In this document: piece by piece, positions 1-39,609 of the stretch
How the letters are laid out: every line of letters starts with the position of its first letter
Numbering within the stretch: position 1 is the stretch's first letter
IMG/VR virus record: IMGVR_UViG_3300008055_000088
DNA length: 39,609 nucleotides
Reading direction: 5' to 3' (one strand)
From: a virus
Translations under genes and position numbers: made by a program
Notes under the pieces: generated by a model
What the model was told of the DNA's origin: nothing
Databases searched by the model: none
The model's input: the letters and a program-made list of their open reading frames with translations, nothing else

Positions 1-99
1 CAGCCCATGGAGCCATGAGCGTGGAATCTATCGCAGCGTTAATGAGTGCCACATATTGCTGGATGCCTTGGTAGGTCTAGGCAGTTTAAACGCCTCAAC
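1..99. repeat. Terminal direct overlap, identical to 39511..39609 (circular-closure signature)
   Basis: Base-for-base identity of the first and last 99 nt, read directly. The overlap lies inside an ORF. Confidence 0.95.
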
Positions 100-623: not shown

Positions 624-1508
624 ATGTGTGGAATAGCAGGATATTGCTTAGATGCTAAGCATTACTCACGCATCAGCACTAGCGACCTCGCAGGGCAGAT
701 GTTGTACGACATAGAACACCGTGGCATGGATGCAACGGGCGCTGCATGGATAAACCCACGCAACGGTAGGCGCGTTATCAGCAAGGCAGCAACCAGTGCC
801 AGCAAATTCGTGCCAAAGGCAGGCGCTAATCTTTGCGATGGCGCAACGACTGCCATCTTGCATACGCGCTTTGCAACCCAAGGCTCGCCAACTGTTGCAA
901 GTAACAACCACCCAATCCCACGCGGTAAAATCGTACTCACTCACAACGGACACATCAGCAACGATACCGAATTGTTTAAACAACTAGGTGTGCCCCGTCT
1001 TGGACAAGTAGATAGCGAGGCTGCTGCTGCTCTCATTGCTTTCAGCAAAGACAAGCCATGGGAAATCTTGACCCAACTCTATGGCACCGCAGCCCTTGCA
1101 TGGGTTACCCAACACGACCCGCGCTCACTGCACTTAGCCCGTGTCAATTCATCACCGCTATGGCTAGGGCAATCTAATCATGGCTCCCTGTTCTACGGTT
1201 CTACCAAAGAAACCGTGGAGAACGCTGCAATCATGACCGATTCAGAGATTGATTGGTTCCATGATGCAGCCGAGGGGGAGTACTTCAAGGTACGCGATGG
1301 CGCAATCATTGAGTACCAAACTTTTAAACCGAGCAAGCCTGAGCCTCGCTACTATGGCTACGGTGGAAACTGGTGGAACGAATACGACACGGTAACAACT
1401 ACACCGCGTGCTTATGCAACCGAACTTGATTATCATGGCAAATACAATCAACGCCGAGCAGATAAGTATGCACGCTGGTGGGAGGATAAAGACGAACTGA
1501 ACTTCTAG
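624..1508 (+). CDS. Class-II (Ntn-type) glutamine amidotransferase domain protein, stand-alone
   Basis: N-terminal MCGI (Cys2 nucleophile), plus HTRFATQGS, NNHP, LTHNGHISN and DSE motifs. SD TGGAG 8 nt upstream. A terminator follows. Confidence 0.85.
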   Translation: MCGIAGYCLDAKHYSRISTSDLAGQMLYDIEHRGMDATGAAWINPRNGRRVISKAATSASKFVPKAGANLCDGATTAILHTRFATQGSPTVASNNHPIPRGKIVLTHNGHISNDTELFKQLGVPRLGQVDSEAAAALIAFSKDKPWEILTQLYGTAALAWVTQHDPRSLHLARVNSSPLWLGQSNHGSLFYGSTKETVENAAIMTDSEIDWFHDAAEGEYFKVRDGAIIEYQTFKPSKPEPRYYGYGGNWWNEYDTVTTTPRAYATELDYHGKYNQRRADKYARWWEDKDELNF

Positions 1509-1547
1509 TTCTGTACAGGTACTAGCAACTCTCTACTGTTTAAACAG

Positions 1548-1571
1548 CCCCCGCTTCGGCGGGGGTTTTTT
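1548..1571 (+). terminator. Rho-independent terminator after the amidotransferase gene
   Basis: CCCCCGC-TTCG-GCGGGGG stem-loop followed by T6. It sits 2 nt after a GTTTAAAC (1538..1545). Confidence 0.8.
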
Positions 1572-1572
1572 A

Positions 1573-1728
1573 ATGTATGTACTGAAGTACATAATGCTCA
1601 CCGTGTTTAAACAACACAAGTATTTGCCGCCGCCACCGCCGTACCCACCACCACCGCCGCCAGACCTCCTGGAATTTATTGTTATGTGTTTAAACGACAC
1701 GCCGCCAGACCTTATCTTCAAATATTAA
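1573..1728 (+). CDS. Possible polyproline micro-ORF or leader peptide (51 aa)
   Basis: Translation is MYVLKYIMLTVFKQHKYLPPPPPYPPPPPPDLLEFIVMCLNDTPPDLIFKY. Same strand as its neighbours, no SD, starts right after the terminator T-run, and contains two GTTTAAAC copies. Confidence 0.25.
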   Translation: MYVLKYIMLTVFKQHKYLPPPPPYPPPPPPDLLEFIVMCLNDTPPDLIFKY

Positions 1729-1774
1729 ATTGTTTAAACAACACGAAAATTATTTTTATTTTTTCTGCTTAACA

Positions 1775-1802
1775 TTGTTGACTTTAAGATAACGAGTATG
1801 AG
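1775..1802 (+). promoter_or_regulatory. Candidate promoter for the second early operon (TTGTTG-16 nt-TATGAG), possibly giving a near-leaderless mRNA
   Basis: Hexamers sit at 1775..1780 and 1797..1802. The ATG at 1814 has no SD. Weak match only. Confidence 0.2.
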
Positions 1803-1813
1803 AAACTTATGCC

Positions 1814-2014
1814 ATGACAAAACAAATGACAGAAGCACAAAAGATACAAGCAAAGCGCACGCATTGCCATCAAAAAGCAACGCGCATAGTCAGAGAACTC
1901 TACCGCGAGGACTTTGAACTTATCTACAACCATCTACTCACAGAGGCGGGGTTACTTCTCAATGAGTCAGGGTTTCAAAAATACAAACAACTAATAGCCA
2001 ACAAGAAAGGATAG
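1814..2014 (+). CDS. Hypothetical protein (66 aa), distant paralogue of 2195..2413
   Basis: ORF-track entry. Shares the pattern A-x-R-x(4)-L-x-R-x(6)-Y-x(7)-GL with the ORF at 2195. Confidence 0.6.
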   Translation: MTKQMTEAQKIQAKRTHCHQKATRIVRELYREDFELIYNHLLTEAGLLLNESGFQKYKQLIANKKG

Positions 2015-2773: not shown

Positions 2774-3135
2774 GCGAACACAAGCAAGTCAAAGGTGTAG
2801 TGATACGCCCCGATGGAACACATGAGGAAAGATTGTTTAAACAACTTTCCGATTATCAAACAGCCGTACAAGGAGTTATTGATGCGGTTCGTTTATACGA
2901 TTACAATGGCAGACAAGTGGGATGCGCTTATGTGGATGATGAGGGATTGCTTAAGGGCTCTGCCATGAATCCACTAGGCAGTGCTATTTCGTTTCTCTTT
3001 GGCAACACGCCTCACTTGGTAGGCAACATAGTAATCGTTGGCAAATCAGATGATGAAGGCTACGATACCGACATCCCTGATTACCTACTGACCCTGATAC
3101 AAAACATCAGCGCCAAGGAAGAATTGGTCGCATAA
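2770..3135 (+). CDS. Hypothetical protein (121 aa), DUF3846-like by pattern
   Basis: ORF-track entry. The pattern VIRPDG...LSDYQTAVQG.I..V....DDEGLLKG..NP resembles DUF3846-type proteins; this is recollection only. Confidence 0.6.
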   Translation: MSEHKQVKGVVIRPDGTHEERLFKQLSDYQTAVQGVIDAVRLYDYNGRQVGCAYVDDEGLLKGSAMNPLGSAISFLFGNTPHLVGNIVIVGKSDDEGYDTDIPDYLLTLIQNISAKEELVA

Positions 3136-3569
3136 TGTTTAAACGATTGGTCGCCATCTTCCTCATCGTCACCGCAAGCGTGGCAATAGACGACAGGTTC
3201 TTTGACAAATCACATGTGCCTATCACACCAGCCAGTGATGGAGTGGCAGGCACGGTGATTGCTTTCTATGAGAACGAATACCAACGCTACGCAGTAGACA
3301 TGCTCACACAGATGGGCAAACTGGAGCAATGGTCATGTCTTTACACACTATGGATGCGAGAATCAAACTGGAATCCACGAGCATTAAATCGTGAGAGTGG
3401 AGCATACGGAATTGCCCAGTTCATGCCATCAACATGGAAACTTGTGGGGTTTAAACGCACCGACAATGGCTTCGTTCAAGTGGAGGCAGGACTTGCATAT
3501 ATCCAGCGCAAGTATGGCGGAAATATCTGCAAGGCACTAGGTAGCAACATCTCAAGGGGTTGGTACTAA
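3135..3569 (+). CDS. Secreted lysozyme-like transglycosylase (SLT or aggregation-promoting-factor type domain)
   Basis: N-terminal signal/TM segment MFKRLVAIFLIVTASVAI. Catalytic-type motif WMRESNWNPRALNRESGAYGIAQFMPSTW. Confidence 0.7.
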   Translation: MFKRLVAIFLIVTASVAIDDRFFDKSHVPITPASDGVAGTVIAFYENEYQRYAVDMLTQMGKLEQWSCLYTLWMRESNWNPRALNRESGAYGIAQFMPSTWKLVGFKRTDNGFVQVEAGLAYIQRKYGGNICKALGSNISRGWY

Positions 3570-4137: not shown

Positions 4138-4276
4138 ATGAAGCAGATTTATCGCCAGTAATAATACGAATAGCCCAATCAAGTCCAGCGTTTAAACCTT
4201 TACACCACTCATCTTTCTCAGGTATCTTTGCATCTTCAATCTTGCTAACAAACTTATCTATCTGTGGGTCGCTCAT
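4136..4276 (-). CDS. Hypothetical small protein (46 aa)
   Basis: ATG 4276 overlaps the TGA of the kinase gene (ATGA). Translation is MSDPQIDKFVSKIEDAKIPEKDEWCKGLNAGLDWAIRIITGDKSAS. Confidence 0.45.
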   Translation of the reverse strand: MSDPQIDKFVSKIEDAKIPEKDEWCKGLNAGLDWAIRIITGDKSAS

Positions 4277-4809
4277 AGTTTAAACACATTGTGCATTAGC
4301 ATGAATACTTCATCAGATAAATCATCAAGAGTTCCATCGTTATAGAGGACTCGTTTAAACATGTGGTTATCCAAAGCGCGTTCACTGATATGGTCATTGA
4401 CTGCGCCATGGTTGTGTCTGTTTATACGCCACACTTCCCCATCTTGATTCTCAATCATGCGTGCTTCGTTAGGGAAGCGAACATCGGGTATAACAATGCG
4501 CTCACCAGTGGCAACCTGATTCAACAAACGCCACACCCAAACATCTTCATGAATTAACTTGCGACCAACTTCGGTACCCATAACTTGAAGCAAACGGCGC
4601 ACCTCATCTTTAGACTTGGCAACATCCCAACTATACATTTGTACTACCTCGTTTAAACGCATACCATCATGAAGAATAGGGTTCAATGCAAGTAATGCTT
4701 CACGAATACCATCAGCAAACGCTATGCGTTTAAACCCATAGTTAAGTACCAGTAGTTCTGCAACTGTATCCTTACCACTGCGAGCGTATCCGCTCAATCC
4801 GATAATCAT
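4273..4809 (-). CDS. Deoxynucleoside monophosphate kinase-like P-loop kinase
   Basis: N-terminal Walker A segment MIIGLSGYARSGKDT. Size and pattern are typical of phage dNMP kinases. Confidence 0.7.
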   Translation of the reverse strand: MIIGLSGYARSGKDTVAELLVLNYGFKRIAFADGIREALLALNPILHDGMRLNEVVQMYSWDVAKSKDEVRRLLQVMGTEVGRKLIHEDVWVWRLLNQVATGERIVIPDVRFPNEARMIENQDGEVWRINRHNHGAVNDHISERALDNHMFKRVLYNDGTLDDLSDEVFMLMHNVFKL

Positions 4810-6997: not shown

Positions 6998-7322
6998 AGG
7001 CTTCACCTGTCCCTTTGTTGCTTGCCTTGATAATCACCAATGGTGTAGGCGCAACTGTCAATCGCTTTGCAATACGGTAGTTCTCTGCCTCAATCTCAGA
7101 CTCACGAATCCAACCACTCAAATCAATGCGACCATCACGGCGTGGAGCCTTGGCTTCCACCACATAAATACCATTGACTCCAGGAACAAACACATCACCA
7201 ATGTCATTACGACCAGCACGAGGTAAACGCTGTGCGTTTAAACCTTGTTGCATAAAGAAATCAGCAAGGTCTATTTCCCATGCAGCACCCCTACGCTTGT
7301 TGGCTACTTGCTGACTTGGCAT
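6957..7322 (-). CDS. PD-(D/E)XK-type nuclease, possible Holliday-junction resolvase
   Basis: Pattern G-AAWE...GRNDIGDV...YVVEAKA. ATG 7322 with GGAG upstream is preferred to the longer track ORF. Confidence 0.55.
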   Translation of the reverse strand: MPSQQVANKRRGAAWEIDLADFFMQQGLNAQRLPRAGRNDIGDVFVPGVNGIYVVEAKAPRRDGRIDLSGWIRESEIEAENYRIAKRLTVAPTPLVIIKASNKGTGEAYVVQKLSDVLPNL

Positions 7323-8034
7323 CGCGTTCTCTCCTCTCTGCTGCCTCTGCTGCTGCCCAATACAGGTTGTAATAGGCTTCATCAAAAGCAAATCGTTTCA
7401 TGTGTTTAGCAAGCACACCAGTATGGGCATGAACAGGTATACCTGCAGCCTTTACCTTTCGGAAGAAAGAAATATCTTCACCGATAAATTTCTCTCCTCG
7501 TTCGTTGTTCTCGCCAAACCAAAACTGGTCAGGGAACTTATCGTTTAAACCCTTGAGTATGCTCTTGTGCATCAGCACTAAACCCATGCCTGCATTATCA
7601 ACCTTTACTATCTGATTCTTAGGTAGAGGATGAAGATAACTAATCTCATACTCATTGCCAGTTTCATTAAAGACACAAGGCATAGGCTGCATGAGTGAGC
7701 CTTCCATCTGCTTAGAGATGAAATAAACACCGCTTACTATAGGTCGGGCTACCTTGTCAGCAGCATCCCATAGACTCTTTAACATCTCTTTGGTTAAGAC
7801 AATATCTGAATCAACCCACAGCGCCCAATCGGTATTGACCTGCTGCCACATCTCAATGGCTGCTTGTCTTTGTCGGGCAATCTGATTACCTTGAACACGA
7901 ACAGCATTATTAACTGGCACACCAACGGATGCTGCATGTATCAGTGTATAAACCAAGCCCTCAGTAAACTTGCCATCAGTGGTGCCATTGTCGCACCAAA
8001 TAATGGAAAGCATTTCTTTATTACTATGCGCCAT
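7291..8034 (-). CDS. GT-A fold (family-2-like) glycosyltransferase
   Basis: N-terminal beta-strand LSIIWCDNG and a DxD-type motif WVDSDI. Size is consistent. Family assignment is from motif only. Confidence 0.5.
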   Translation of the reverse strand: MAHSNKEMLSIIWCDNGTTDGKFTEGLVYTLIHAASVGVPVNNAVRVQGNQIARQRQAAIEMWQQVNTDWALWVDSDIVLTKEMLKSLWDAADKVARPIVSGVYFISKQMEGSLMQPMPCVFNETGNEYEISYLHPLPKNQIVKVDNAGMGLVLMHKSILKGLNDKFPDQFWFGENNERGEKFIGEDISFFRKVKAAGIPVHAHTGVLAKHMKRFAFDEAYYNLYWAAAEAAERRERDAKSASSQQA

Positions 8035-26792: not shown

Positions 26793-29700
26793 TTATCCAA
26801 GTGTCACAGGGTCATTTTGTAAAAAGCGATTATAGAAGTCATTAAACTCTGGAGATTTCTTAAGTTGCGCTACTGTGCTATTCCAGTAAGCATCTAAATC
26901 AGCATTGTCTTTTGCGGTAAGAGTAGATGCTCCACCGTATGCCCTGCGGTTTGATAACTCACGAGCAATTTGGGTGCGAGTATTTAGATAAACAGCCAAA
27001 TCCCTAGTTACTTGTCTGCGACCATTTTCTTGCATCCACTGTGGGTCAGTAAGCATTGTCTTAATAGACTGCATACGATAAATCCACTTACCTCTATCTA
27101 CATTGTAATAATCAGCAGCCCAATCTTGATTACGGCGGGTTAGGTCTGCAATCATCATTTGCTTAAGGGCAAGTAATTCCTCAGCGCCAGATTCCTGATA
27201 AGACTCATAACCTTGAGCATCAAGTTGGTAATCTAAACCTGTCATCTTTTTACGGAACTCAACCCAACCAACCTTTATATTGGCATCTTTCTTAAGTTCT
27301 GCAGGGTTTCTACGCTCACGATATTTTTCAATAGAGCCAGGAACTGGAGTGTTTCTATACTGCCAAGCATATACAGCCTCAGAGAAGTCATACTTACCAT
27401 CTGGGTCATTGACTAAGAAGCCAATCATTTCAGGTGTTGTTTGACCAATCTTGCTGATTAAGCCTTTGTACCTTTTGATATTTTGGAAAGCAGCCTGCGA
27501 AGCCTGCGCACCAGTAGGGTTGTAAGAACTAGATACAAGGGCTGGACCCATTTCTGGGTACATCTGTAAAAATAAAGTTTCTGCATCTGCGCCATAGACC
27601 TGCTGTATTCTACGGAATTGTTGTGTATAAAAACTTAATGGTGAATCATACTGTGCAGCAAATGGCATAACTAGATTAGAAAGAATCTTAACTCTGTATA
27701 AACTATCTGCTAGATTCTTTACTTCGCTTAATTCAGGCATGGTATCACGCTCGCCTAAGTTAAAACGGATTAATTCGTAACGATAAACTGTATTAAATGT
27801 ACGACTCCACGCTTCATCTTGACCGCCTAATGATGCAAGTTTTTGCATTGCTGGTGGAAATAGATTGCGAATAGTTCCTTCTTGTGGACCAAAAGGTAAT
27901 ACTGGAAGCATACTTTTTGTTACAATATCCTCTAAGTCAGGCTTTAGTTTAACAATCTCATTAACTGGAATTGTTACAAGAGGACCAAAACCTGCCAATA
28001 TTTCACCTTGCATAATAATGTCAAGACTTCGCACTGGAATAGAAACTTGTGTGCCTGATGAGCGCAAGGCTTCTGCCATGCCTTTGCCATATCCAGGAAT
28101 CTTCTCTACACCTTTAATAAAACTTGAAGGCATAGGCAGTACTATTTTGTTTTCATAAGAAAACTCAGTAGTTGGGTTGCCATCTCTATCAACCACATTT
28201 GGCTGATTACGCAGTGTGGACACAATTTGTCCAGCACGAGCGATAACCGCAGGATTCTCTGTTGCAAGACCAGACCAACGGCGAATAGTGTTTTCCCATG
28301 CGTTAAAGAACGGCATGACAAGGCGCATTTTTTCGCCAGCATAAGACTTACGAATAATCGTAAATAGAGTCTTATTTACTTCTTTGCGAGTTGACTCAAC
28401 AGCCTCACGGCGAACCTTATTAATATCATCAGTTGTTAACTGAGCATCATCACCAATGTTCATACGCTTAGTTGCTAGGGCAACATCAAGGCGTTGTTTC
28501 ATTTCTGAACGATAAACTTGGCGAGCCAACGGGTGACGGGCAAAGGTAGTTTCAGGTAATGAGCCTAGGAAATAAAACGCTCTATCAATAACCTTAGCCA
28601 AGCCATCTTGCCAGTTACGAGCCTGTGGGCTGGTTGGAACTATGCGCCCAATAATATCTGGCATCTCTGTATTATCGGCAAAATGATTCCGTAGCCAAGA
28701 CTCAGTAATTTCACCATTACGGAAGGCTTCTTGGGTTTGGCTATCTGGCAGATAACGATTGTAAGCACTGTATAAATCGCCAACAAAATCTTCTGCATCA
28801 ATAGATACATTTAACCGCTCTGATGCCACTCTATTTCCTGGCACATCAATATTGAACTTACGAGCATAGGCAGCATTTTCTGGAGCACGCAACCAAGCCA
28901 CAATTTCTTCTGGGCGTGTGTCATTGAGCATTTGCTCAATTAGTGGGTCAATACGCCCATCTGGACTACGAAAGAAAGTGTTTAATTGATTTGCATATCC
29001 TGAGTAATAATCAGGCATATTTGGAGATAAAACATTTTCTACATAGTTGCCATGTTCTGCTGCAAACATCCGTGCTGGATGGTCTACAAATCTGCGATAA
29101 GATTCTGTGTTGTCAGTTCTATCTAATAGAATCTGTCCAGGCTCACCACGGTAAGCATCATCAAATTCAACAGTTGTACCATCATAGAGTTTTTCTGTTC
29201 TACGACCAGTTCCTTGAATAACCTTTGGCGCTGCAAGGCGTTCTTCTTCTACGACTCGTGCGTTTAAACGACTTAGAAGTGCTTGTAAATCTCTACGAGT
29301 TGTTGCTTGTCCATCTGCTATTTCACGAACAAGTGAAACTATGCCTTCGGTTGGGTATCTTCCACTGGCGATGGACTCTGAGATTTCATTAACGCGCTTT
29401 CCAAAATTCTCCGAGCCAGCAATTCTGCGAACGCTCGGCGTTCTTGTGGATTCATCTGGTCTAACGGCTTTGGTGCCTTTACCCAGTGCAAACCTTTCGC
29501 TTGCTCCGACATCTCCTGTGCCTTTCGTTCCGATATATTCAAGTTCACCAAGGTCAAATACTCCTTGCTGATTGCGTGTTGTTCCTAGTCTAATGGCTTC
29601 TGCACGATTTGCAATTACATTTACGGGGTCGGACTTAATATGAGGAACACCATCAATATCGTCAATCCAAGTACCAAAATGGTCTGCACTGCCAAACTTA

Positions 29701-32700
29701 TCAAAATTAGCCTCAAAGTGGTCTGCAACAGAAGCAACCCAATTCTCTGGGTTAGTACGGGCTTGTTCCAGTGGGAACGCGTGCGTTGCCCCACGGATAG
29801 CAACTGCGACACCTTGCGTAGGTACATCACCAGTAACCATATCAGAGAACTTAAATGTTCCGCCTTGATTTTGAACAGTACGCTCAATAATCTGCAAGAT
29901 TCTGCCTTCGTCTGAAAGCAATTGTTGTGCATTTTTTGCTGCGTTTAAACGCTGTTCAGCCAAGGCTACAGTTGGTCTATTGCCAAATCCGTCAACTAGG
30001 TCAGGGTCAACAAGCACCGTAGAACCACCACGACTTTTTACATCAGGTAATACAAGTTTACCTATGCCATTAGCACGCATCCAGTTAAGCAGTTCTGGCT
30101 CTTTACCTTGCCAAGCATCACGAGTGCGAATTGTGCCTTTAGAAACACCAAGAATTGTTTGAAGTTCTGGATAATCAGCCAAGTCAAGAACTTGACGAGT
30201 TCTGGCTTGTCCTGAGTATTGCTGCATTGAGCGCAAATCTACAGTTTTGCCGTATACCTTTTGACCAATAGTTACGCCTTCTCTACCAGGCTTGCGGATA
30301 CGGAACTGTCCAGTAGTTAATAACTCTTGCGAAACTGTGTTTGGGTCAATAGATGTCCAGCGCCCTGTTGAAGGATTAAGAACTTGTATTTCGTTGCCAT
30401 TGTTAACGCTATTAATAAAACCATCACGCATATCTGCAGCAACTGTTTGAAGTGCAGCAGATGGTTGGCGCTTTGCTGGCTTCTTTGGAAGGATAGCCTG
30501 TACTTTAATATCTAAAGTACCTCTACGAATACTACTATCGCCTGCGTATGGCTTTACTTCTACTACTTTAAACTTTGTTCCAGGTGGAAGTAAAACTTCT
30601 TTTTCTGCTGCTATGTAACCGCTTGAAGGTTGAGCACCAAAAGGTGTAAGCGATGTATTAGTTGCCTCAATATCTAATCCAGGATGACCTTTAGGCAATT
30701 CAATTTCAAGTACATTTCCACCTCTAAAAGTAGATGCAACATCATATTCTTTAGATGTTGAAATAAAAGCATTATCTCCGATAATATCGCCAACTCTTGC
30801 ATTAGCGTAAATATCTCTTGTAACGCCACGATATACCGTTGTTGGTTGGACTATAACGCTGCGTTGAATTACGCGTTTAAGTCCTTCTACATATTTTCTT
30901 TGGGATGGATTTAAAGGTTCTGGAGTAACATCATCAGGAAAAGCAAAAAGATTACCGCGTAATTTGGCTTGTTCTGGACCTACTACTCCTTGGACATAAG
31001 GTGCAACAAAGTCATTGTATTCTTCAATAGATATACGACTTGCAACTTCTGGGGTACCAATTTCTGCGCCTGGAGAAAGTTCAATATTTCTAGGCATTGG
31101 ATAAGCACGACCAGAAGTACGCTTGTAAATTTCAGATGCACTGATTACTGGCATAGCCGAGGTTGCATAGCGCTCTGCCATGTCCTCGGTAAAGTTCATC
31201 GCCATAGGGCGTGTATTATCTAAAGCGCTAATTGGCGCTGGTGAACCATGGTATAAATACTCACCAGTTGCGTATTGGAATACATCAATGGCTTCTTTAT
31301 ACTGTTCATCAGTAAGTCTACCCATGCGATATAAACGCTCAATGGATTCTAGGAATACATCAAAATCTTGAAGCGCTCGCTCAGATGCAATAAGCAAAGA
31401 TTGTTTATCTGCAAATTCGCTACGCAACGCTACAGAATCCTCACGCAATCCTTGTGCTACAAGTCTGCGGTCTGTTAAGCGGTCAATATCCCGAACGCGA
31501 TTTGTGTACCAACCTTTAAATCCTTCTCGGTTAATATCACTAAGTGCCATAAGTCCATAGCCCTTAGCAAGAATAGATAAACTTGCTTCACTTAGGTTAC
31601 GAACAGTGTAACCAAGACGAAGAAGGACAGAGGCTTTCCAAAGGTCATTAAGAACACCAGTGGTGTATCGCCAAGAATCTGGGTCAGTAATTTCAGATGC
31701 GCGATTTAAGGTATTAAGCACGCCTTTATTCTTTTCAATAACACGAGAATAGTTAGCGAGGTCTACCATAGGTAGCGCGTTAGCGCCTTGGCGCTCTAGG
31801 TATGGAATCTTAAGAATTACATCATCGCCAGTCATTAAGAACTTACGGTCTTTAATCATCTGTCGCGCAGTTTCGCGGCGAGCCTTATATTGACTCCAGA
31901 TAACTTGACCAGCCTCATCGCTGATTCCAAGTTTTTGATTAATTAAAGATATAGATAAATCTTCAAATGATTCAACAACGCGAGCGCGAAGTTCTGGAAC
32001 TCCACCAGATTGTATGTAATCATTAAGATGGCGTTCAACTACAGGATTTGCTTCATCTCCAACAATACGGCGTAATAAAGTTCCAAATGCTGTTAATTCA
32101 TTATATGAATCAGAGTCGTTAAGATTAATATAACCTGATGGAGTTTCTTGGAAAGAATCGCCAACTTTCTTCATACCAAAATTTACTACTGCTACAAGAG
32201 GGTGATACTTAGTTGGTTGGAAATATCCAACGGTTGGAAACTTACTTGGCTCGTTTAAGTCAACACCTTTGACTTTAGCAGCACGGCGCTCGGCGCGGTT
32301 CATAGCCATCTTTTCAAAGGCTGGCTTACCAAATGTACGCTTAGTTAAAGCATTGCCATTTACATGTAATTTATTTAACGCTTGGAAATATGAATTGTTG
32401 TCAAGATTTGCAACATAATCACTGGCTGCATCAAGGACATTAATATCATCTACGATTCCATTGGTAGGAACTCCGTCAAGAATCATCATGTCAACTTTAG
32501 ATACATCTTTTGTTTTATCAAAAACAAATGCTAGTTCTTTACGCTTTGCAACGAGGCGAGCCATAGCCTCTGTATCTCCCAGCGCTGTGGCTGTAAGCAC
32601 ATCTGCTACATCATCTACAGTATCTGATTGACCTAGCAAGTAAGATAAAGTGTCTGCATCGTTAGATGCTTGAACCAGTGGATGTTGGCGAATTACAGTT

Positions 32701-33458
32701 TGGTCACTCTTAGCCATCCATGAAAGCGTGTTGTAAACCTCTCCGCCTTCTTCGCGCCCTTCATTTATTGTTCGGGCTAATGCTGCTGGTGACATAATTT
32801 GCACATTGCGGAGAGTGCGAGGCATAAAGAAATCTTTTGCAAGGGTTGCAGCGTTTGCATCACGCGCTCCCATAGGGCGAGTTACTAATGCCTTACGAGC
32901 AAGACCAACGCCTTTAGCAAACTTGCCAAGTGGGTCTGTTACTGTGGTAAAAAATGTGTCAATAGAACCACTGAGTGTGCGTGCTGCCCAATAAGTTTGG
33001 AATATCTCACGGTCTTTTGCATTAAAAATATCAAAATCGCCACGGAACGATTCTGTGCCTGGAGTTAATTTTGCTGTTAAATATGAGATTGCTTGACCTG
33101 GAGAAATTTGGTCACGGTTTTCCCATGACTTTTTTGTATCACCAGTAGCAAGGGCTGTTACTGCTGCAGATAATGGCTCACGAAGGTATCTACCACCAGT
33201 TTCGTAAGAAAGCATTGCTGTTGGCATTAAAACTTTATTGAAAGCAAACCCTACTGGTTTGCGAATTGGATAAGATGCTGCTAAAACTGTAGAGCGAAAT
33301 GTATCTCCTGCTATGTTAAACGCATCAGAAACCCAGTTTTTATCGTTTGACGAAACAGTAGCAAGGTCAAACAATAAAGTTGGTAAGCCAATCTCGTTGG
33401 CAAATCCATTTCCTGATAGTTTCTTGGCTGCATTACCAAGCGTTTCGCTAAAACTCAT
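26793..33458 (-). CDS. Giant virion (probably ejected internal) protein, 2221 aa, with an embedded ADP-ribosyltransferase domain
   Basis: A single uninterrupted ORF with an ATGA coupling upstream. Lies between portal and scaffold. R-S-E ART motifs are present (see the next feature). Confidence 0.85.
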   Translation of the reverse strand: MSFSETLGNAAKKLSGNGFANEIGLPTLLFDLATVSSNDKNWVSDAFNIAGDTFRSTVLAASYPIRKPVGFAFNKVLMPTAMLSYETGGRYLREPLSAAVTALATGDTKKSWENRDQISPGQAISYLTAKLTPGTESFRGDFDIFNAKDREIFQTYWAARTLSGSIDTFFTTVTDPLGKFAKGVGLARKALVTRPMGARDANAATLAKDFFMPRTLRNVQIMSPAALARTINEGREEGGEVYNTLSWMAKSDQTVIRQHPLVQASNDADTLSYLLGQSDTVDDVADVLTATALGDTEAMARLVAKRKELAFVFDKTKDVSKVDMMILDGVPTNGIVDDINVLDAASDYVANLDNNSYFQALNKLHVNGNALTKRTFGKPAFEKMAMNRAERRAAKVKGVDLNEPSKFPTVGYFQPTKYHPLVAVVNFGMKKVGDSFQETPSGYINLNDSDSYNELTAFGTLLRRIVGDEANPVVERHLNDYIQSGGVPELRARVVESFEDLSISLINQKLGISDEAGQVIWSQYKARRETARQMIKDRKFLMTGDDVILKIPYLERQGANALPMVDLANYSRVIEKNKGVLNTLNRASEITDPDSWRYTTGVLNDLWKASVLLRLGYTVRNLSEASLSILAKGYGLMALSDINREGFKGWYTNRVRDIDRLTDRRLVAQGLREDSVALRSEFADKQSLLIASERALQDFDVFLESIERLYRMGRLTDEQYKEAIDVFQYATGEYLYHGSPAPISALDNTRPMAMNFTEDMAERYATSAMPVISASEIYKRTSGRAYPMPRNIELSPGAEIGTPEVASRISIEEYNDFVAPYVQGVVGPEQAKLRGNLFAFPDDVTPEPLNPSQRKYVEGLKRVIQRSVIVQPTTVYRGVTRDIYANARVGDIIGDNAFISTSKEYDVASTFRGGNVLEIELPKGHPGLDIEATNTSLTPFGAQPSSGYIAAEKEVLLPPGTKFKVVEVKPYAGDSSIRRGTLDIKVQAILPKKPAKRQPSAALQTVAADMRDGFINSVNNGNEIQVLNPSTGRWTSIDPNTVSQELLTTGQFRIRKPGREGVTIGQKVYGKTVDLRSMQQYSGQARTRQVLDLADYPELQTILGVSKGTIRTRDAWQGKEPELLNWMRANGIGKLVLPDVKSRGGSTVLVDPDLVDGFGNRPTVALAEQRLNAAKNAQQLLSDEGRILQIIERTVQNQGGTFKFSDMVTGDVPTQGVAVAIRGATHAFPLEQARTNPENWVASVADHFEANFDKFGSADHFGTWIDDIDGVPHIKSDPVNVIANRAEAIRLGTTRNQQGVFDLGELEYIGTKGTGDVGASERFALGKGTKAVRPDESTRTPSVRRIAGSENFGKRVNEISESIASGRYPTEGIVSLVREIADGQATTRRDLQALLSRLNARVVEEERLAAPKVIQGTGRRTEKLYDGTTVEFDDAYRGEPGQILLDRTDNTESYRRFVDHPARMFAAEHGNYVENVLSPNMPDYYSGYANQLNTFFRSPDGRIDPLIEQMLNDTRPEEIVAWLRAPENAAYARKFNIDVPGNRVASERLNVSIDAEDFVGDLYSAYNRYLPDSQTQEAFRNGEITESWLRNHFADNTEMPDIIGRIVPTSPQARNWQDGLAKVIDRAFYFLGSLPETTFARHPLARQVYRSEMKQRLDVALATKRMNIGDDAQLTTDDINKVRREAVESTRKEVNKTLFTIIRKSYAGEKMRLVMPFFNAWENTIRRWSGLATENPAVIARAGQIVSTLRNQPNVVDRDGNPTTEFSYENKIVLPMPSSFIKGVEKIPGYGKGMAEALRSSGTQVSIPVRSLDIIMQGEILAGFGPLVTIPVNEIVKLKPDLEDIVTKSMLPVLPFGPQEGTIRNLFPPAMQKLASLGGQDEAWSRTFNTVYRYELIRFNLGERDTMPELSEVKNLADSLYRVKILSNLVMPFAAQYDSPLSFYTQQFRRIQQVYGADAETLFLQMYPEMGPALVSSSYNPTGAQASQAAFQNIKRYKGLISKIGQTTPEMIGFLVNDPDGKYDFSEAVYAWQYRNTPVPGSIEKYRERRNPAELKKDANIKVGWVEFRKKMTGLDYQLDAQGYESYQESGAEELLALKQMMIADLTRRNQDWAADYYNVDRGKWIYRMQSIKTMLTDPQWMQENGRRQVTRDLAVYLNTRTQIARELSNRRAYGGASTLTAKDNADLDAYWNSTVAQLKKSPEFNDFYNRFLQNDPVTLG
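30534..30941 (-). other. R-S-E class ADP-ribosyltransferase domain (residues ~840..975 of the giant protein)
   Basis: VYRG (R877, codon 30828..30830), FISTS (S900-T-S902, 30753..30761) and AEKEVLLP (E952-x-E954, 30597..30605). Confidence 0.7.
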
Positions 33459-37823: not shown

Positions 37824-38182
37824 AGCATCTCCCAAGACGGGGTATTTGGAGTCTTGGGGCTAAACTCCTAACCGAAGGCGTAGTCTAAACGAAGCCGAAG
37901 GTTAGGGCTTCTACTAGGGCGACCCATAGGGTCGCAGTTAAGTGTTCGGAGGCTCCGATAATTTTGCCTCCTCACTAATACTATAGGTGTCCAAAAGGTC
38001 CTTAGCGGACACTTTTGGGCATGTGATTTACGCCACATTTATAGTAAATCAGCAAAAGTGCAGGTCAGAGCCACATTTATGGGGGGCGAGGACTAGCAAA
38101 GTTATGTAAGTAGATACATACACATACACACGCCGCGTTTTTAAAAACCCTGGGGTGCGATTTTGCATCGCGCACCCGCTCT

Positions 38183-38358
38183 CTGCATAGTGTTTAAACC
38201 CTGCACGCTGCAATGCTGCACTGCTCACGCTCCCACTAGCAGCACTGGCGCGGGTGGAGGCGCTTACTCTGCATTGATAGCGCCCCCGCTCTGCACGCAT
38301 CGCCCCGCGCCCCGTGTTTAAACTTTGCAGGCTCTGCACCCGCCCCGCCTGCACTGCA
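38183..38358. repeat. GC-rich block with nine CTGCA pentamers and two CCCGCTCT..GCA units
   Basis: Read directly. Two GTTTAAAC copies (38192 and 38316) are embedded 124 bp apart. Confidence 0.8.
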
Positions 38359-38389
38359 TCAATCGCAGAGGGCAGGCAGAGGCTCATAA

Positions 38390-38405
38390 GTTACCGATGA
38401 GTAAC
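38390..38405. promoter_or_regulatory. Operator-like inverted repeat GTTAC-N6-GTAAC (copy 1)
   Basis: Sequence is GTTACCGATGAGTAAC. Followed by CCTCAAAAAAGCAG and a TAAAAT -10-like hexamer at 38420..38425. Confidence 0.45.
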
Positions 38406-38494
38406 CTCAAAAAAGCAGTTAAAATAGCAAGCCATCTCACATGCCCAATATCTTAAGATGCAAAAACATAGCGTAAAATAATGCTTTGCTCATG

Positions 38495-38510
38495 GTTACT
38501 CGCTGGTAAC
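38495..38510. promoter_or_regulatory. Operator-like inverted repeat GTTAC-N6-GTAAC (copy 2)
   Basis: Sequence is GTTACTCGCTGGTAAC. It lies 105 bp from copy 1, start to start. Confidence 0.45.
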
Positions 38511-38614
38511 TTACAGCCCATAGTTTAAACACGCAGCCCATCTCAAGCCATGGCAGATAATCAAAGTGTTTAAACCCCTCAAAAAGCAGCGTCAAATAAT
38601 GACTTTTGAGATGC

Positions 38615-38643
38615 TTGAGTTTAAACGCCAAAGATGCAACAAT
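38615..38643 (+). promoter_or_regulatory. Candidate early promoter (TTGAGT-17 nt-AACAAT) overlapping a GTTTAAAC
   Basis: Hexamers at 38615..38620 and 38638..38643, about 40 nt upstream of ATG 38685. Weak -10. Confidence 0.2.
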
Positions 38644-38684
38644 CAGACCGTGGCACCGCGCCACACTCAGACTGGAGGCACCAA

Positions 38685-38858
38685 ATGACTCAAGGCATCA
38701 CGGTTGCAGAGGTTGCAAAACCAAAGCAGACCACCCGTCTACGCAAAGTTCTTTGCGAGGTAGACGGTTATATTGCAAGAATCTCCCGCTCCACACTTAT
38801 CACCTATGGCAGCCCAATCTGCCCTGCATGCAATCAAGCCATGAAAGAGGTCAAATAA
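38685..38858 (+). CDS. Hypothetical protein (57 aa), first gene of the early arm
   Basis: ATG 38685 with GGAGG 8 nt upstream, preferred to the track start at 38634. Confidence 0.6.
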   Translation: MTQGITVAEVAKPKQTTRLRKVLCEVDGYIARISRSTLITYGSPICPACNQAMKEVK

Positions 38859-38860
38859 TC

Positions 38861-39609
38861 ATGAGCATTACTTTTGGCATGGAGTTTGAAATCCAAGGCT
38901 TGAGCCCTGCAAGGGCATCAGATTGTCTAAATAGGGCAGGCATTGATTGCGATTTAGGCGATGGCACATGGTCATCAAAATATGATGGCAGCGTGCAAAA
39001 TGGCGCAGAGGTCATCTCTCCAATACTCACCACCCCTCGCCTCAATGAGGCGCACAAAGTAACCAAAGCGCTCAAAGCAGGTGGCGCACGGGTAGACCGT
39101 GCCACGGGTTTCCATGTCCATATTGGAATCCAATCCTTGGCAGCGCCTGAATCTAATCGCTCGCCTGCGTTCAATCTCGCCAATCTAGTTTTGAATTGGT
39201 ACGCAGCGCATCACGCGATTGCAGCGCTAGTTGCACCATCCCGTTTAAACAATCGCTACTGCAAAGTTCTAGGCGAGGCACATGCCACGGAGCAGGCAAG
39301 TTATAGCAGCAATGGCAGCAGAGGCGCATGGAACCAAAACCGCTATGTCAGCCTCAACCTAGAATCTATGCACCGCCATGGCACCGTGGAGGCACGCCTG
39401 CACCAAGGCACCTTGAACGGTGTAAAAGCAATCGCATGGAGCCAATTCATCAGCGCCTTCATAGATGCAACCGCTAACAAGGGTTTAAACGCCCTAGACA
39501 TGACTGGACTCAGCCCATGGAGCCATGAGCGTGGAATCTATCGCAGCGTTAATGAGTGCCACATATTGCTGGATGCCTTGGTAGGTCTAGGCAGTTTAAA
39601 CGCCTCAAC
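38861..39609 (+). CDS. Amidoligase_2-type (GCS2 / glutamine-synthetase-like carboxylate-amine ligase) protein; open at the window end, continues at 100..142
   Basis: My own translation gives FGMEFEIQG, GAEVISP, GFHVHIG and GTVEARLHQGT motifs with no stop before the window end. It is absent from the ORF track because it lacks an in-window stop. Total is 263 aa after circular joining. Confidence 0.75.
   Translation, partial: MSITFGMEFEIQGLSPARASDCLNRAGIDCDLGDGTWSSKYDGSVQNGAEVISPILTTPRLNEAHKVTKALKAGGARVDRATGFHVHIGIQSLAAPESNRSPAFNLANLVLNWYAAHHAIAALVAPSRLNNRYCKVLGEAHATEQASYSSNGSRGAWNQNRYVSLNLESMHRHGTVEARLHQGTLNGVKAIAWSQFISAFIDATANKGLNALDMTGLSPWSHERGIYRSVNECHILLDALVGLGSLNAS
39511..39609. repeat. 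Terminal direct overlap, identical to 1..99
   Basis: Same 99-nt string as the window start. Confidence 0.95.

What the first reader, a model, noticed from the sequence alone, without database searches (positions are those of the whole stretch)
37836..38684. Unusually long (850 bp) repeat-dense non-coding control region between the divergent early and late arms
No credible ORF is present. The two - strand track ORFs here are Arg/Ser/Ala-rich composition artefacts. The region is modular:

(a) 37831..38012 holds five stem-loops:
- CCCAAGAC/GTCTTGGG
- CCTAACC/GGTTAGG, enclosing a CCGAAGG direct repeat
- GCGACCC-ATA-GGGTCGC
- GGAGGC/GCCTCC
- GTGTCC/GGACAC followed by TTTT

(b) A 10-bp direct repeat CCACATTTAT lies at 38033 and 38071.

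(c) GTTTTTAAAAAC lies at 38137.

(d) A GC-rich block at 38183..38358 has nine CTGCA pentamers, two CCCGCTCT..GCA units and two GTTTAAAC copies.

(e) An AT-richer part holds two GTTAC-N6-GTAAC inverted repeats, two CCTCAAAAA(A)GCAG boxes, two AGCC(C)ATCTCA boxes and three GTTTAAAC copies.

This is the density of iterons and operators expected of a replication origin combined with an early/late transcriptional switch. It could also include the packaging start, since it abuts terminase.
Basis: seen in the sequence. Interest (0 to 1): 0.65.

Follow-up and report, generated by a model that had tools for sequence, protein, structure and literature searches.

The report
Phage genome-end and early-control region
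The 850-base gap between the two gene arms of this freshwater actinobacterial phage is a real non-coding control region. It most likely holds the genome ends and packaging signal, a conserved five-hairpin folded element of unknown role, and the early promoters with their operators. It is also where a genome-wide 8-letter DNA motif begins, a motif that is selected and changes in step between related phages.

Summary
In detail: every listed repeat and stem-loop is at its coordinates, and no ORF is conserved. The window is a complete, circularly assembled actinophage genome with WhiB, a sigma factor and a T7-type large terminase (TerL).

Only the 320 nt next to TerL (37836-38160) is conserved across hundreds of relatives.
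- Five hairpins show strong covariation, and the fold reads best on the + strand.
- They are followed by single-copy boxes. The last, TTTAAAAACCCTGGGGT, is also present in Planktophila phage E7 and in Streptomyces podophages.
- In the Streptomyces phages it lies 31-32 nt inside the boundary of a 253-276 bp direct terminal repeat.
- By homology, the physical ends and terminal repeat lie here, from about 38117 across the GC-rich CTGCA array.

The AT-rich part holds two conserved GTTAC-N6-GTAAC operators 105 bp apart, flanking promoter-like boxes.

GTTTAAAC is not a set of iterons.
- There are 42 copies against 0.9 expected, filling a 9-kb early domain.
- Sites are conserved at orthologous positions.
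- Sister lineages carry GTTTAGAC or TTAAGAC at many of the same positions.

An origin function is untested and unsupported. Ends, transcripts and the protein that reads the motif need experiments.

The parts
37830..38022 (+). Five-hairpin structured element. Approximate spans: P1 37830-37859, P2 37866-37907, P3 37919-37935, P4 37941-37976, P5 37987-38022.
   Evidence: Fold z = -4.9. In 52 homologues 96.9% of cells pair, against 88.1% in shuffles (0 of 500), and 23 pairs show changes on both sides; slid controls pair at 35-50%. Pairs with changes on both sides: 8 of 9 in P1, 6 of 7 in P3, 3 of 6 in P4. The P2 outer stem and P5 (TAGGTGTCCA...GGACA) do not vary. Strand evidence: 107 G.U cells against 25 A.C cells, and the + strand is more stable in 57 of 58 homologues.
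38019..38036 (.). TGTGA-N6-CCACA palindrome, resembling a CRP/GlxR site or a small hairpin
   Evidence: Perfect TGTGA-N6-TCACA in 11 of 58 homologues and near-perfect in 27. In most of the other 20 it is replaced by runs of T or a small hairpin; a few keep a degenerate palindrome.
38056..38070 (+). Single-copy conserved box AAGTGCAGGTCAGAG
   Evidence: GCAGGTCAG is almost invariant across the family and unique in the genome. A 15-nt exact match occurs in FlowerPower, and TGCAGGTCAG occurs in Immanuel3 and Manuel. In those phages it sits outside the right terminal repeat and on the TerL-sense strand.
38093..38116 (+). Single-copy conserved box CTAGCAAAGTTATGTAAGTAGATA
   Evidence: Conserved in all 58 homologues and unique in the genome. 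It ends where the homologous terminal-repeat boundary is predicted.
38117..38135 (+). C/A-rich short-repeat tract, with the predicted inner boundary of the terminal repeat at about 38117
   Evidence: The repeat pattern is kept while the unit differs between lineages: ACACAT, ATACCG, ACGC, ACACAG. Position 38117 is 31 nt on the TerL side of the CCCTGGGG core, which is the offset of the repeat boundary in three Streptomyces phages.
38140..38156 (+). Terminus-associated box TTTAAAAACCCTGGGGT
   Evidence: Unique in the genome. Present in all family members, in phage E7 (350 nt from TerL) and in FlowerPower, Immanuel3 and Manuel (401, 435 and 415 nt from TerL), always on the TerL-antisense strand. 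Variants occur across the E7 clade.
38153..38177 (+). Hairpin P6 (GGGTGCG...CGCACCC) that uses the G-run of the box as its 5' arm
   Evidence: The 3' arm changes to match in relatives: GGTGCA/TGCACC, GGGTGA/TCACCC, GGGGTC/GACCCC, CTGGGGT/ACCCCAG (read by eye). It is absent in some lineages.
38183..38358 (+). GC-rich block with nine same-strand CTGCA and two GTTTAAAC; candidate body of the direct terminal repeat
   Evidence: 9 CTGCA against 1.36 expected. The sequence aligns only in the closest relatives, but YTGCA-rich sequence follows the box in all lineages. The FlowerPower terminal repeat has an analogous one-strand GGACAT array after its box.
38390..38405 (.). Operator-like palindrome 1, GTTACCGATGAGTAAC
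   Evidence: Half-sites are invariant and the N6 spacer is free in relatives.
38495..38510 (.). Operator-like palindrome 2, GTTACTCGCTGGTAAC, 105 bp from operator 1
   Evidence: The 105-106 bp spacing is kept in win, L210, L215, L217, L220 and L221. A pair is also seen in L243, L247 and L225 after alignment.
38453..38484 (+). Promoter-like site between the operators: TTAAGA ... TAAAAT/AATAAT
   Evidence: Found by the consensus scan. The -10-like box aligns with CAGTATAAATCAATGG in relatives, 15-20 nt upstream of operator 2.
38615..38626 (+). Proximal -35-like TTGAGT overlapping GTTTAAAC (38619-38626), about 60 nt upstream of the first early gene
   Evidence: Relatives have TTGAC(A/T), a 17-18 nt spacer and TAAACT, with GTTTAAAC in the spacer.
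38192..38626 (.). Five GTTTAAAC copies (38192, 38316, 38523, 38568, 38619), the first sites of a 9.3-kb motif domain that runs around the junction to window 7550
   Evidence: 42 copies against 0.92 expected. The first copy is at a fixed position just past the conserved module in relatives, and lineages with another motif carry that motif there.

Best explanation
The region is the junction between the two ends of a linear phage genome that was assembled as a circle. The phage packages DNA with a T7-type large terminase (TerL), a type that produces short direct terminal repeats.

Reading the + strand away from TerL, I propose four parts:
1. 37830-38116 is the unique left-end leader. It holds a five-hairpin element whose pairing is under selection, most likely as an RNA read on the + strand, followed by single-copy recognition boxes. 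The function of the element is not known.
2. From about 38117 to about 38360 is the terminal repeat. It starts at the C/A tract, contains the conserved box TTTAAAAACCCTGGGGT and hairpin P6, and continues through the one-strand CTGCA array. These are proposed to be the signals where terminase recognises and cuts the concatemer.
3. 38360-38684 is the unique right-end region that enters the cell first. Host RNA polymerase starts early transcription here from two or three promoter-like sites. Two GTTAC-N6-GTAAC operators ten helical turns apart, and GTTTAAAC sites overlapping the promoters, would control them.
4. The GTTTAAAC sites are the first members of a network of about 40 sites across the first-ejected 9 kb. 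A sequence-specific reader is inferred, probably encoded in the early arm.

Shown: conservation, covariation, box homology, operator conservation, and selection and concerted change of the motif.
For: Genome and relatives:
- The first and last 99 nt of the window are identical, so this is a circular assembly.
- The genome encodes WhiB, a sigma factor, a primase and a helicase.
- TerL matches T7-like phages. It is about 49% identical to Streptomyces Beephvirinae podophages and 47% identical to Planktophila phages E7 and F5.
- FlowerPower, Immanuel3 and Manuel have TerL as gene 1, a leftward right arm, exact terminal repeats of 253, 275 and 276 bp, and 1.76-1.93 kb of non-coding DNA across the junction.

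Conserved module:
- Only 37848-38158 is conserved in all of about 60 relatives.
- The boxes are single-copy in the genome.
- The terminus box is shared with E7 and the three Streptomyces phages, at 325-435 nt from TerL and on the same strand. In all three Streptomyces phages the repeat boundary is 31-32 nt from the box core.
- One-strand short-repeat arrays follow the box in both groups.

Hairpins:
- Covariation statistics support the pairing.
- The strand asymmetry favours the + strand.

Operators and promoters.

Motif network.
Against: - No read-level evidence for the ends exists here. Contig breakpoints in relatives do not coincide in sequence.
- The hairpin model R1 does not match FlowerPower or E7. 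FlowerPower's left-end leader is not unusually structured, with z = 0.7 and -0.5. The hairpin element is therefore family-specific and not a general feature of this packaging type.
- The GCAGGTCAG box sits on the other side of the repeat, and on the other strand relative to TerL, in the Streptomyces phages. Module order is therefore not fully conserved.
- No convincing promoter was found upstream of P1 for a + strand RNA.
- The strand call rests mainly on four helix-end pairs.
- The promoter-like sites do not exceed shuffles: 3 found against 1.7 expected.
Confidence: 0.55

Rival explanations
1. The hairpins are the 5' untranslated leader of the late (TerL) mRNA on the - strand. The late promoter would lie among the conserved boxes at 38023-38116. 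P1, which ends 7-13 nt before the TerL start codon and overlaps its ribosome-binding site, would limit terminase translation or stabilise the mRNA.
For: - P1 abuts the TerL ribosome-binding site and start codon in all relatives.
- The - strand also folds well, with -72.1 kcal/mol and z = -4.8.
- All internal helix pairs are Watson-Crick, so they fit either strand.
- The phage has its own sigma factor, which needs a late promoter.
- TATAGT lies on the - strand inside the invariant block at about 37980.
Against: - 107 G.U cells would become A.C mismatches on the - strand, against 25 the other way.
- The + strand is more stable in 57 of 58 homologues, by 7.2 kcal/mol on average.
- The spacing between boxes ii and iii varies by 15-35 nt, so together they do not form one promoter.
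- Several relatives have no ribosome-binding site next to P1.
Confidence: 0.22
2. The hairpins act as DNA, not RNA. Single-stranded or extruded + strand DNA at the concatemer junction would fold. It would serve terminase recognition, hairpin-primed duplication of the terminal repeat (as proposed for T7; recalled from memory), or priming by the phage primase.
For: - The hairpins are adjacent to the predicted repeat boundary and to TerL.
- The element is single-copy.
- G.T pairs are tolerated in DNA hairpins.
- The phage encodes a primase, a helicase and an exonuclease.
- No promoter or terminator clearly frames an RNA.
Against: - Five separate hairpins, with an invariant 10-nt stem sequence and G.U-type variation, are more typical of a folded RNA.
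- Related phages with the same terminase type lack the element.
Confidence: 0.13
3. The region is the replication origin, with the repeats acting as iterons and the AT-richer part as the unwinding element. This could coexist with the other functions.
For: - The region has a dense set of repeats and an AT-richer segment at 38360-38684.
- T7-group phages have secondary origins at promoters near their ends (recalled from memory).
Against: - The repeats are 5-mers on one strand, or an 8-mer spread over 9 kb, rather than regularly spaced 17-22 bp iterons.
- No initiator gene lies next to the region; the adjacent genes are an amidoligase, a GATase and small proteins.
- GC skew tracks gene orientation and shows no distinct switch here.
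- The repeat-bearing parts are the least conserved.
Confidence: 0.1

Closest known systems
Terminal regions of Streptomyces podophages of the Beephvirinae (FlowerPower, Immanuel3, Manuel)
   Same: - A T7-type TerL as the first gene of the long arm, with early genes converging from the other end.
- A long non-coding junction.
- The shared box TTTAACAACCCCGGGGT at 400-435 nt from TerL, on the same strand.
- A one-strand short-repeat array beside the box.
   Different: - TerL is only about 49% identical.
- Their junction is 1.8-1.9 kb, against 0.85 kb here.
- They have no P1-P5 element and no unusual folding of the left leader.
- The GCAGGTCAG box is on the other side of the repeat.
- Their right arm has no enriched 8-mer.
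- The ends of the phage in the window are not measured.
T7/T3 concatemer junction: terminal repeat flanked by short repeat arrays, with pac signals and end-proximal promoters (from memory)
   Same: Terminase type, and the general logic of a short terminal repeat with short repeat arrays and packaging signals beside it.
   Different: - In T7 the gene order is collinear, whereas here the arms diverge.
- There is no phage RNA polymerase here; the phage encodes a sigma factor instead.
- No sequence similarity was tested.
Stoperators of mycobacteriophage L5 and other cluster A phages: 13-14 bp repressor sites dispersed over the genome (from memory)
   Same: - Tens of copies of a short site dispersed through transcribed DNA of an actinophage.
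- A lineage-specific consensus that changes in step across all sites.
- An orientation bias in the non-palindromic versions.
   Different: - The sites here are 8 bp, mostly palindromic, and mostly inside coding sequence.
- They are confined to a 9-kb domain.
- The orientation bias seems to follow the DNA strand rather than the direction of transcription.
- The phage shows no lysogeny genes among those examined, and no repressor was identified.
Phage cis-acting or small structured RNAs: HK022 put, lambda 6S/qut leader, phi29 packaging RNA (from memory)
   Same: A structured element of about 190 nt, conserved by covariation, beside a promoter region or genome end and next to the packaging gene.
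   Different: - There is no Rfam match.
- No transcript is shown.
- The terminase has a nuclease domain, unlike the phi29 system.
- No antiterminator context is demonstrated.
Paired operators on the same face of the helix, which repress by looping (lac, gal, lambda; from memory)
   Same: Two palindromes with invariant half-sites and a free spacer, 105-106 bp apart (ten helical turns), bracketing a promoter-like box.
   Different: The binding protein is unknown, and looping and repression are untested.

Membership tests
Direct-terminal-repeat (T7-type) genome terminus and packaging region | Large terminase of the T7/short-DTR type | tested here: met
   tblastn finds 478 phage records, dominated by T7-like Escherichia, Pseudomonas, Salmonella and Kayfunavirus phages. 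The best matches are Beephvirinae at 49% over 99% of the protein. Pfam finds only a borderline Terminase_6C nuclease-domain match, 21.9 bits against a cut-off of 22.6.
Direct-terminal-repeat (T7-type) genome terminus and packaging region | A cis element homologous to one at a mapped terminal-repeat boundary in relatives | tested here: met
   The box TTTAA(A/C)AACCC(T/C)GGGGT is present here and in three phages with exact repeats of 253-276 bp. The boundary is 31-32 nt from the box core in all three.
Direct-terminal-repeat (T7-type) genome terminus and packaging region | Physical ends with an exact repeat at both ends of virion DNA | not testable with these tools
   Only a circular assembly with a 99-nt overlap is available. 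Contig ends in relatives are not consistent with each other.
Iteron-type replication origin | Three or more regularly spaced direct repeats of about 17-22 bp beside an AT-rich unwinding element | tested here: not met
   The repeats are 5-mers, two-copy 9-21 nt pairs, or an 8-mer found genome-wide.
Iteron-type replication origin | An adjacent initiator gene, or a GC-skew switch | tested here: inconclusive
   No initiator was recognised among the early-arm and replication-block genes scanned. Skew follows gene orientation.
Structured non-coding RNA (any Rfam family) | A match to a curated covariance model | tested here: not met
   No hit at gathering score. The only hit below it is Pox_AX with E = 3.6.
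Structured non-coding RNA (generic) | Base pairs maintained by compensatory changes | tested here: met
   96.9% of cells pair, 23 of 44 pairs have changes on both sides, 0 of 500 shuffles reach this, and slid controls pair at 35-50%.
Structured non-coding RNA (generic) | The element is transcribed as a discrete RNA, with a promoter, a terminator and expression | not testable with these tools
   No clear promoter lies upstream of P1. T-runs follow P5 in some lineages only.
L5-type stoperator network | Many dispersed copies of one short site with a lineage-specific consensus | tested here: met
   There are 23-39 copies per 10 kb. The motif switches to GTTTAGAC/GTCTAAAC at 7-8 of 10 orthologous positions in L233 and L234. 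Between genomes of the same motif type, 50-92% of sites are kept, mostly 73-92%, against about 7% expected.
L5-type stoperator network | Asymmetric 13-14 bp sites oriented with transcription and bound by the phage repressor | tested here: not met
   The sites are 8 bp and palindromic in most lineages. In L233 the bias keeps the same DNA strand across the switch between arms. No repressor was identified.
CRP/GlxR-type binding site | TGTGA-N6-TCACA palindrome | tested here: inconclusive
   The window has one mismatch (CCACA). The palindrome is perfect in 11 of 58 homologues and absent or degenerate in 20.

The most novel reading that the evidence does not exclude
This phage family marks the first-ejected 9 kb of its genome, starting inside this region, with about 40 copies of an 8-bp word. 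A protein encoded in the early arm would read that word. Word and reader have switched specificity together several times: GTTTAAAC, GTTTAGAC, TTAAGAC. The non-palindromic versions are polar with respect to the DNA end.

That would be a new kind of domain-wide DNA signal. It could serve early-gene shut-off, protection of the entering end from host exonucleases, or control of ejection or packaging.

The five-hairpin element next to terminase would then be a new phage RNA acting in packaging or in transcription across the genome junction.
Probability: 0.3. Interest if true: 0.85.

Novelty: new variant of a known kind. Interest (0 to 1): 0.62.

Why it matters
These phages belong to a very abundant group of freshwater actinobacterial viruses, with hundreds of related contigs and cultured relatives on 'Ca. 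Planktophila'. Their regulation and packaging are unstudied.

The work gives concrete, testable cis elements:
- a predicted terminal-repeat boundary;
- a terminus box conserved from Streptomyces to Nanopelagicales phages;
- a candidate structured RNA supported by covariation and absent from Rfam;
- a conserved operator pair.

It also shows that the repeats seen in this region are the visible edge of a dispersed 8-mer network. That network is under strong selection and evolves in concert. This is a rare natural record of a DNA word and its reader changing specificity together, and it can be tested directly with binding assays.

Tried and rejected
- A scan of bacterial genomes for TAGGTGTCCA-N8-25-GGACA, meant to find a host copy or prophage. 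The pattern was too unspecific.
- The hairpin model R1 on FlowerPower and E7: no match.
- Collinear similarity between this region and the FlowerPower junction. Only one 15-mer is significant; the 8-9-mers are at chance level.
- Using contig breakpoints of relatives as a proxy for physical ends. Three contigs stop 783-786 nt from TerL, but their end sequences are unrelated.
- A host-wide motif explanation for GTTTAAAC. No host genome could be scanned.
- A coding explanation for the motif.
- A search for a DNA-binding reader among early-arm proteins with Pfam and PHROGs. Only domains of unknown function, an amidoligase and a GATase were found.
- Literature searches found no description of the motif or the element.
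- A conserved promoter upstream of P1 was looked for in the TerL 5' coding region and not found.
Full report
**What the window is.** The first 99 nt equal the last 99 nt, so the window is a circularly assembled genome of about 39.5 kb. All genes from 37835 down to 4273 are on the - strand. They are the large terminase (TerL), a 608-aa ORF, a 2221-aa protein with an ADP-ribosyltransferase domain, further unscanned ORFs that are presumably structural, and then an exonuclease, helicase, RusA, primase, sigma factor and dNMP kinase. A short + strand arm runs from 38685 across the junction to 4076. It holds a Cys-rich small protein, an amidoligase, a GATase, small ORFs, a transglycosylase and WhiB. 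WhiB and a terminase related to Streptomyces phages identify an actinophage. TerL is 47% identical to records OX376640 and OX376641.

**The observation.** The five stem-loops fold at -80.7 kcal/mol with z = -4.9. The nine CTGCA in 38183-38358 compare with 1.36 expected (0 of 2000 shuffles reach nine), and all lie on one strand. There is no tRNA and no Rfam family. ORF 38049-38387 has no Pfam match. The ORFs here are not conserved: relatives differ by 1-nt indels and by paired substitutions in the stems.

**Only part of the region is conserved.** TerL recovered more than 597 related viral contigs, of which 80 were kept. blastn shows that only window 37848-38158, the 320 nt next to TerL, is conserved in all of them, down to 82% TerL identity. 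The GC-rich block and the AT-richer part align only in the closest relatives.

**The hairpins are a selected structure.** A covariance model of P1-P5 aligned 52 homologues. On that alignment 96.9% of cells form pairs, against 88.1% after shuffling (0 of 500). Twenty-three of 44 pairs have changes on both sides, against 13.2 expected, and sliding the partners drops pairing to 35-50%. P1 (8 of 9 pairs), P3 (6 of 7) and P4 (3 of 6) show changes on both sides. The outer stem of P2 and P5 (TAGGTGTCCA...GGACA) do not vary, which suggests sequence-specific recognition as well.

**Which strand folds.** There are 107 G.U cells and 25 A.C cells, and the + strand is more stable in 57 of 58 homologues by 7.2 kcal/mol on average. 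This favours the + strand, which runs away from TerL. It rests mostly on four helix-end pairs, so I put the call at about 70%. I found no convincing promoter upstream of P1. T-runs follow P5 in only some lineages.

**Single-copy boxes and the link to genome ends.** After P5 come several elements:
- a TGTGA-N6-(T/C)CACA palindrome, present in about two thirds of homologues;
- the box AAGTGCAGGTCAG;
- the box CTAKCAAAGTTATGTRGGTAGATA;
- a C/A-rich tract whose repeat unit differs by lineage;
- the box TTTAAAAACCCTGGGGT, whose G-run forms the 5' arm of a further hairpin with a covarying 3' arm.

Each box occurs once in the genome. The closest cultured phages, FlowerPower, Immanuel3 and Manuel, have TerL as gene 1 at 624-679. 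Their right arm is transcribed leftward, they carry exact terminal repeats of 253, 275 and 276 bp, and 1.76-1.93 kb of non-coding DNA spans the junction. That is the same layout as this region once the genome is drawn as a circle.

They carry TTTAACAACCCCGGGGT or close variants on the TerL-antisense strand, 401-435 nt from TerL. E7 has TTTAAACACTCTGGGGT at 350 nt, and the window has its box at 325 nt. The E7 clade keeps variants of it. In all three Streptomyces phages the inner boundary of the repeat is 31-32 nt from the box core on the TerL side.

The homologous point here is about 38117. This is exactly where the conserved box ends and the variable C/A tract begins. A repeat of Beephvirinae length would then cover the box, hairpin P6, the first GTTTAAAC and the CTGCA array. 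FlowerPower's repeat likewise carries a one-strand GGACAT array after its box. This is inference by homology, and no reads were available. Against a simple one-to-one mapping, the GCAGGTCAG box lies outside the right repeat and on the other strand in the Streptomyces phages. They and E7 also lack P1-P5.

**The AT-richer part is an early promoter and operator cluster.**
- GTTAC-N6-GTAAC keeps its half-sites while the spacer varies freely.
- Two copies lie 105-106 bp apart in six lineages, and a pair is also seen in more distant ones.
- Between them lies a conserved -10-like box, and the scan places a promoter-like site at 38453-38482.
- A proximal TTGAC(A/T), 17-18 nt spacer and TAAACT unit, with GTTTAAAC in or next to the -35 element, lies about 60 nt before the first early gene.
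- The consensus scans alone do not exceed chance, so the promoters remain inferred.

**GTTTAAAC is not a set of iterons.**
- The window has 42 copies against 0.92 expected. Thirty-four of them lie between 38192 and 7550 across the junction.
- Relatives have 18-39 copies on the early side of TerL and 0-3 on the other side.
- Some lineages instead carry GTCTAAAC, or GTCTTAA(G/T), at the same density.
- Between GTTTAAAC-type genomes only 70-73% identical, 50-92% of sites (mostly 73-92%) are intact at orthologous positions, against about 7% expected. Against genomes of another motif type, 0-38% are intact.
- At the orthologous positions, L233 and L234 carry GTTTAGAC or GTCTAAAC at 7-8 of 10 sites inside the dNMP kinase, sigma, primase and GATase genes.
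- GTCTTAA-type genomes have an entirely different early arm but nearly identical sigma and primase genes. Leftover GTTTAAAC sites are decaying there.
- Non-palindromic variants are strand-biased: 21-25 against 5-9 for TTAAGAC, and 19 against 6 for GTTTAGAC in L233 (14 against 11 in L234). In L233 the bias keeps the same DNA strand across the switch between arms.
- E7 and FlowerPower show no such motif, and no reader protein was identified.

The pattern calls for a sequence-specific reader, probably encoded in the early arm. Its function is open: stoperator-like shut-off, protection of the entering end, or an ejection or packaging signal.

**Verdict.** The finding is real and the region is regulatory. 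Its best-supported identity is the genome-end and packaging junction plus the early promoter and operator region of a phage with a T7-type terminase, not a replication origin. The new pieces are a family-specific structured element supported by covariation and the start of a concertedly evolving 8-mer network.

Noticed in passing
window 1-99 and 39511-39609: The first 99 nt are identical to the last 99 nt, inside the amidoligase gene. This is a circular-assembly overlap, so the window is a whole genome of about 39.5 kb.
   Followed up: yes
window 38192 through the junction to 7550; loci L208-L252: An 8-bp word (GTTTAAAC here; GTCTAAAC or GTCTTAAG in sister lineages) fills a 9-kb early domain at about 3.5 copies per kb. 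It is kept at orthologous positions and switches identity in concert between lineages. The non-palindromic forms are strand-biased. Its reader and function are unknown.
   Followed up: partly
window 1508-1814: This is a second non-coding stretch inside the early arm. It has four GTTTAAAC copies (1538, 1605, 1688, 1732) and, right after the GATase gene, a G+C-rich hairpin (CCCCCGCTTCGGCGGGGG). It may be an internal terminator and promoter region.
   Followed up: no
loci L231, L236, L239, L242, L245 compared with L243: The whole early arm (amidoligase, GATase and the small genes) is replaced by unrelated genes in the GTCTTAA-type lineages. The neighbouring sigma and primase genes stay 91-97% identical, so this is a clean module swap.
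   Followed up: partly
window 38685-38858; L243:8618-9187 (- strand): The first early gene encodes 57 aa here. It corresponds to the Cys-rich C-terminal end of a 189-aa protein in L243 (PHROG 6361). It is a candidate regulator, and a truncated or minimal version in this genome.
   Followed up: partly
window 26793-33458 (- strand): A 2221-aa protein carries an ADP-ribosyltransferase exoenzyme domain at residues 855-978. It is probably a large virion or ejected protein.
   Followed up: no
window 38861-142 and 624-1508 (+ strand): An amidoligase_2 and a class-II glutamine amidotransferase lie at the head of the early arm, with a glycosyltransferase (7291-8034) and a dNMP kinase (4273-4809) nearby. 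Together they could form a small-molecule, peptide or DNA-modification pathway.
   Followed up: no
L207 (OX376640.1) 2800-3157: Phage E7 keeps three features upstream of TerL despite only 47% TerL identity. These are a shortened P2-like hairpin (GGATTAACC..GTAG..AAAC..GGTTAATCC), an AAAAGCCCTGGTCA box and the terminus box.
   Followed up: partly
loci L001-L080, upstream of TerL: 29 of 80 related contigs end within 1.15 kb upstream of TerL. The region is therefore an assembly breakpoint hot spot. Hypervariability next to a conserved block is the likely cause, but a collapsed terminal repeat could also produce it.
   Followed up: partly
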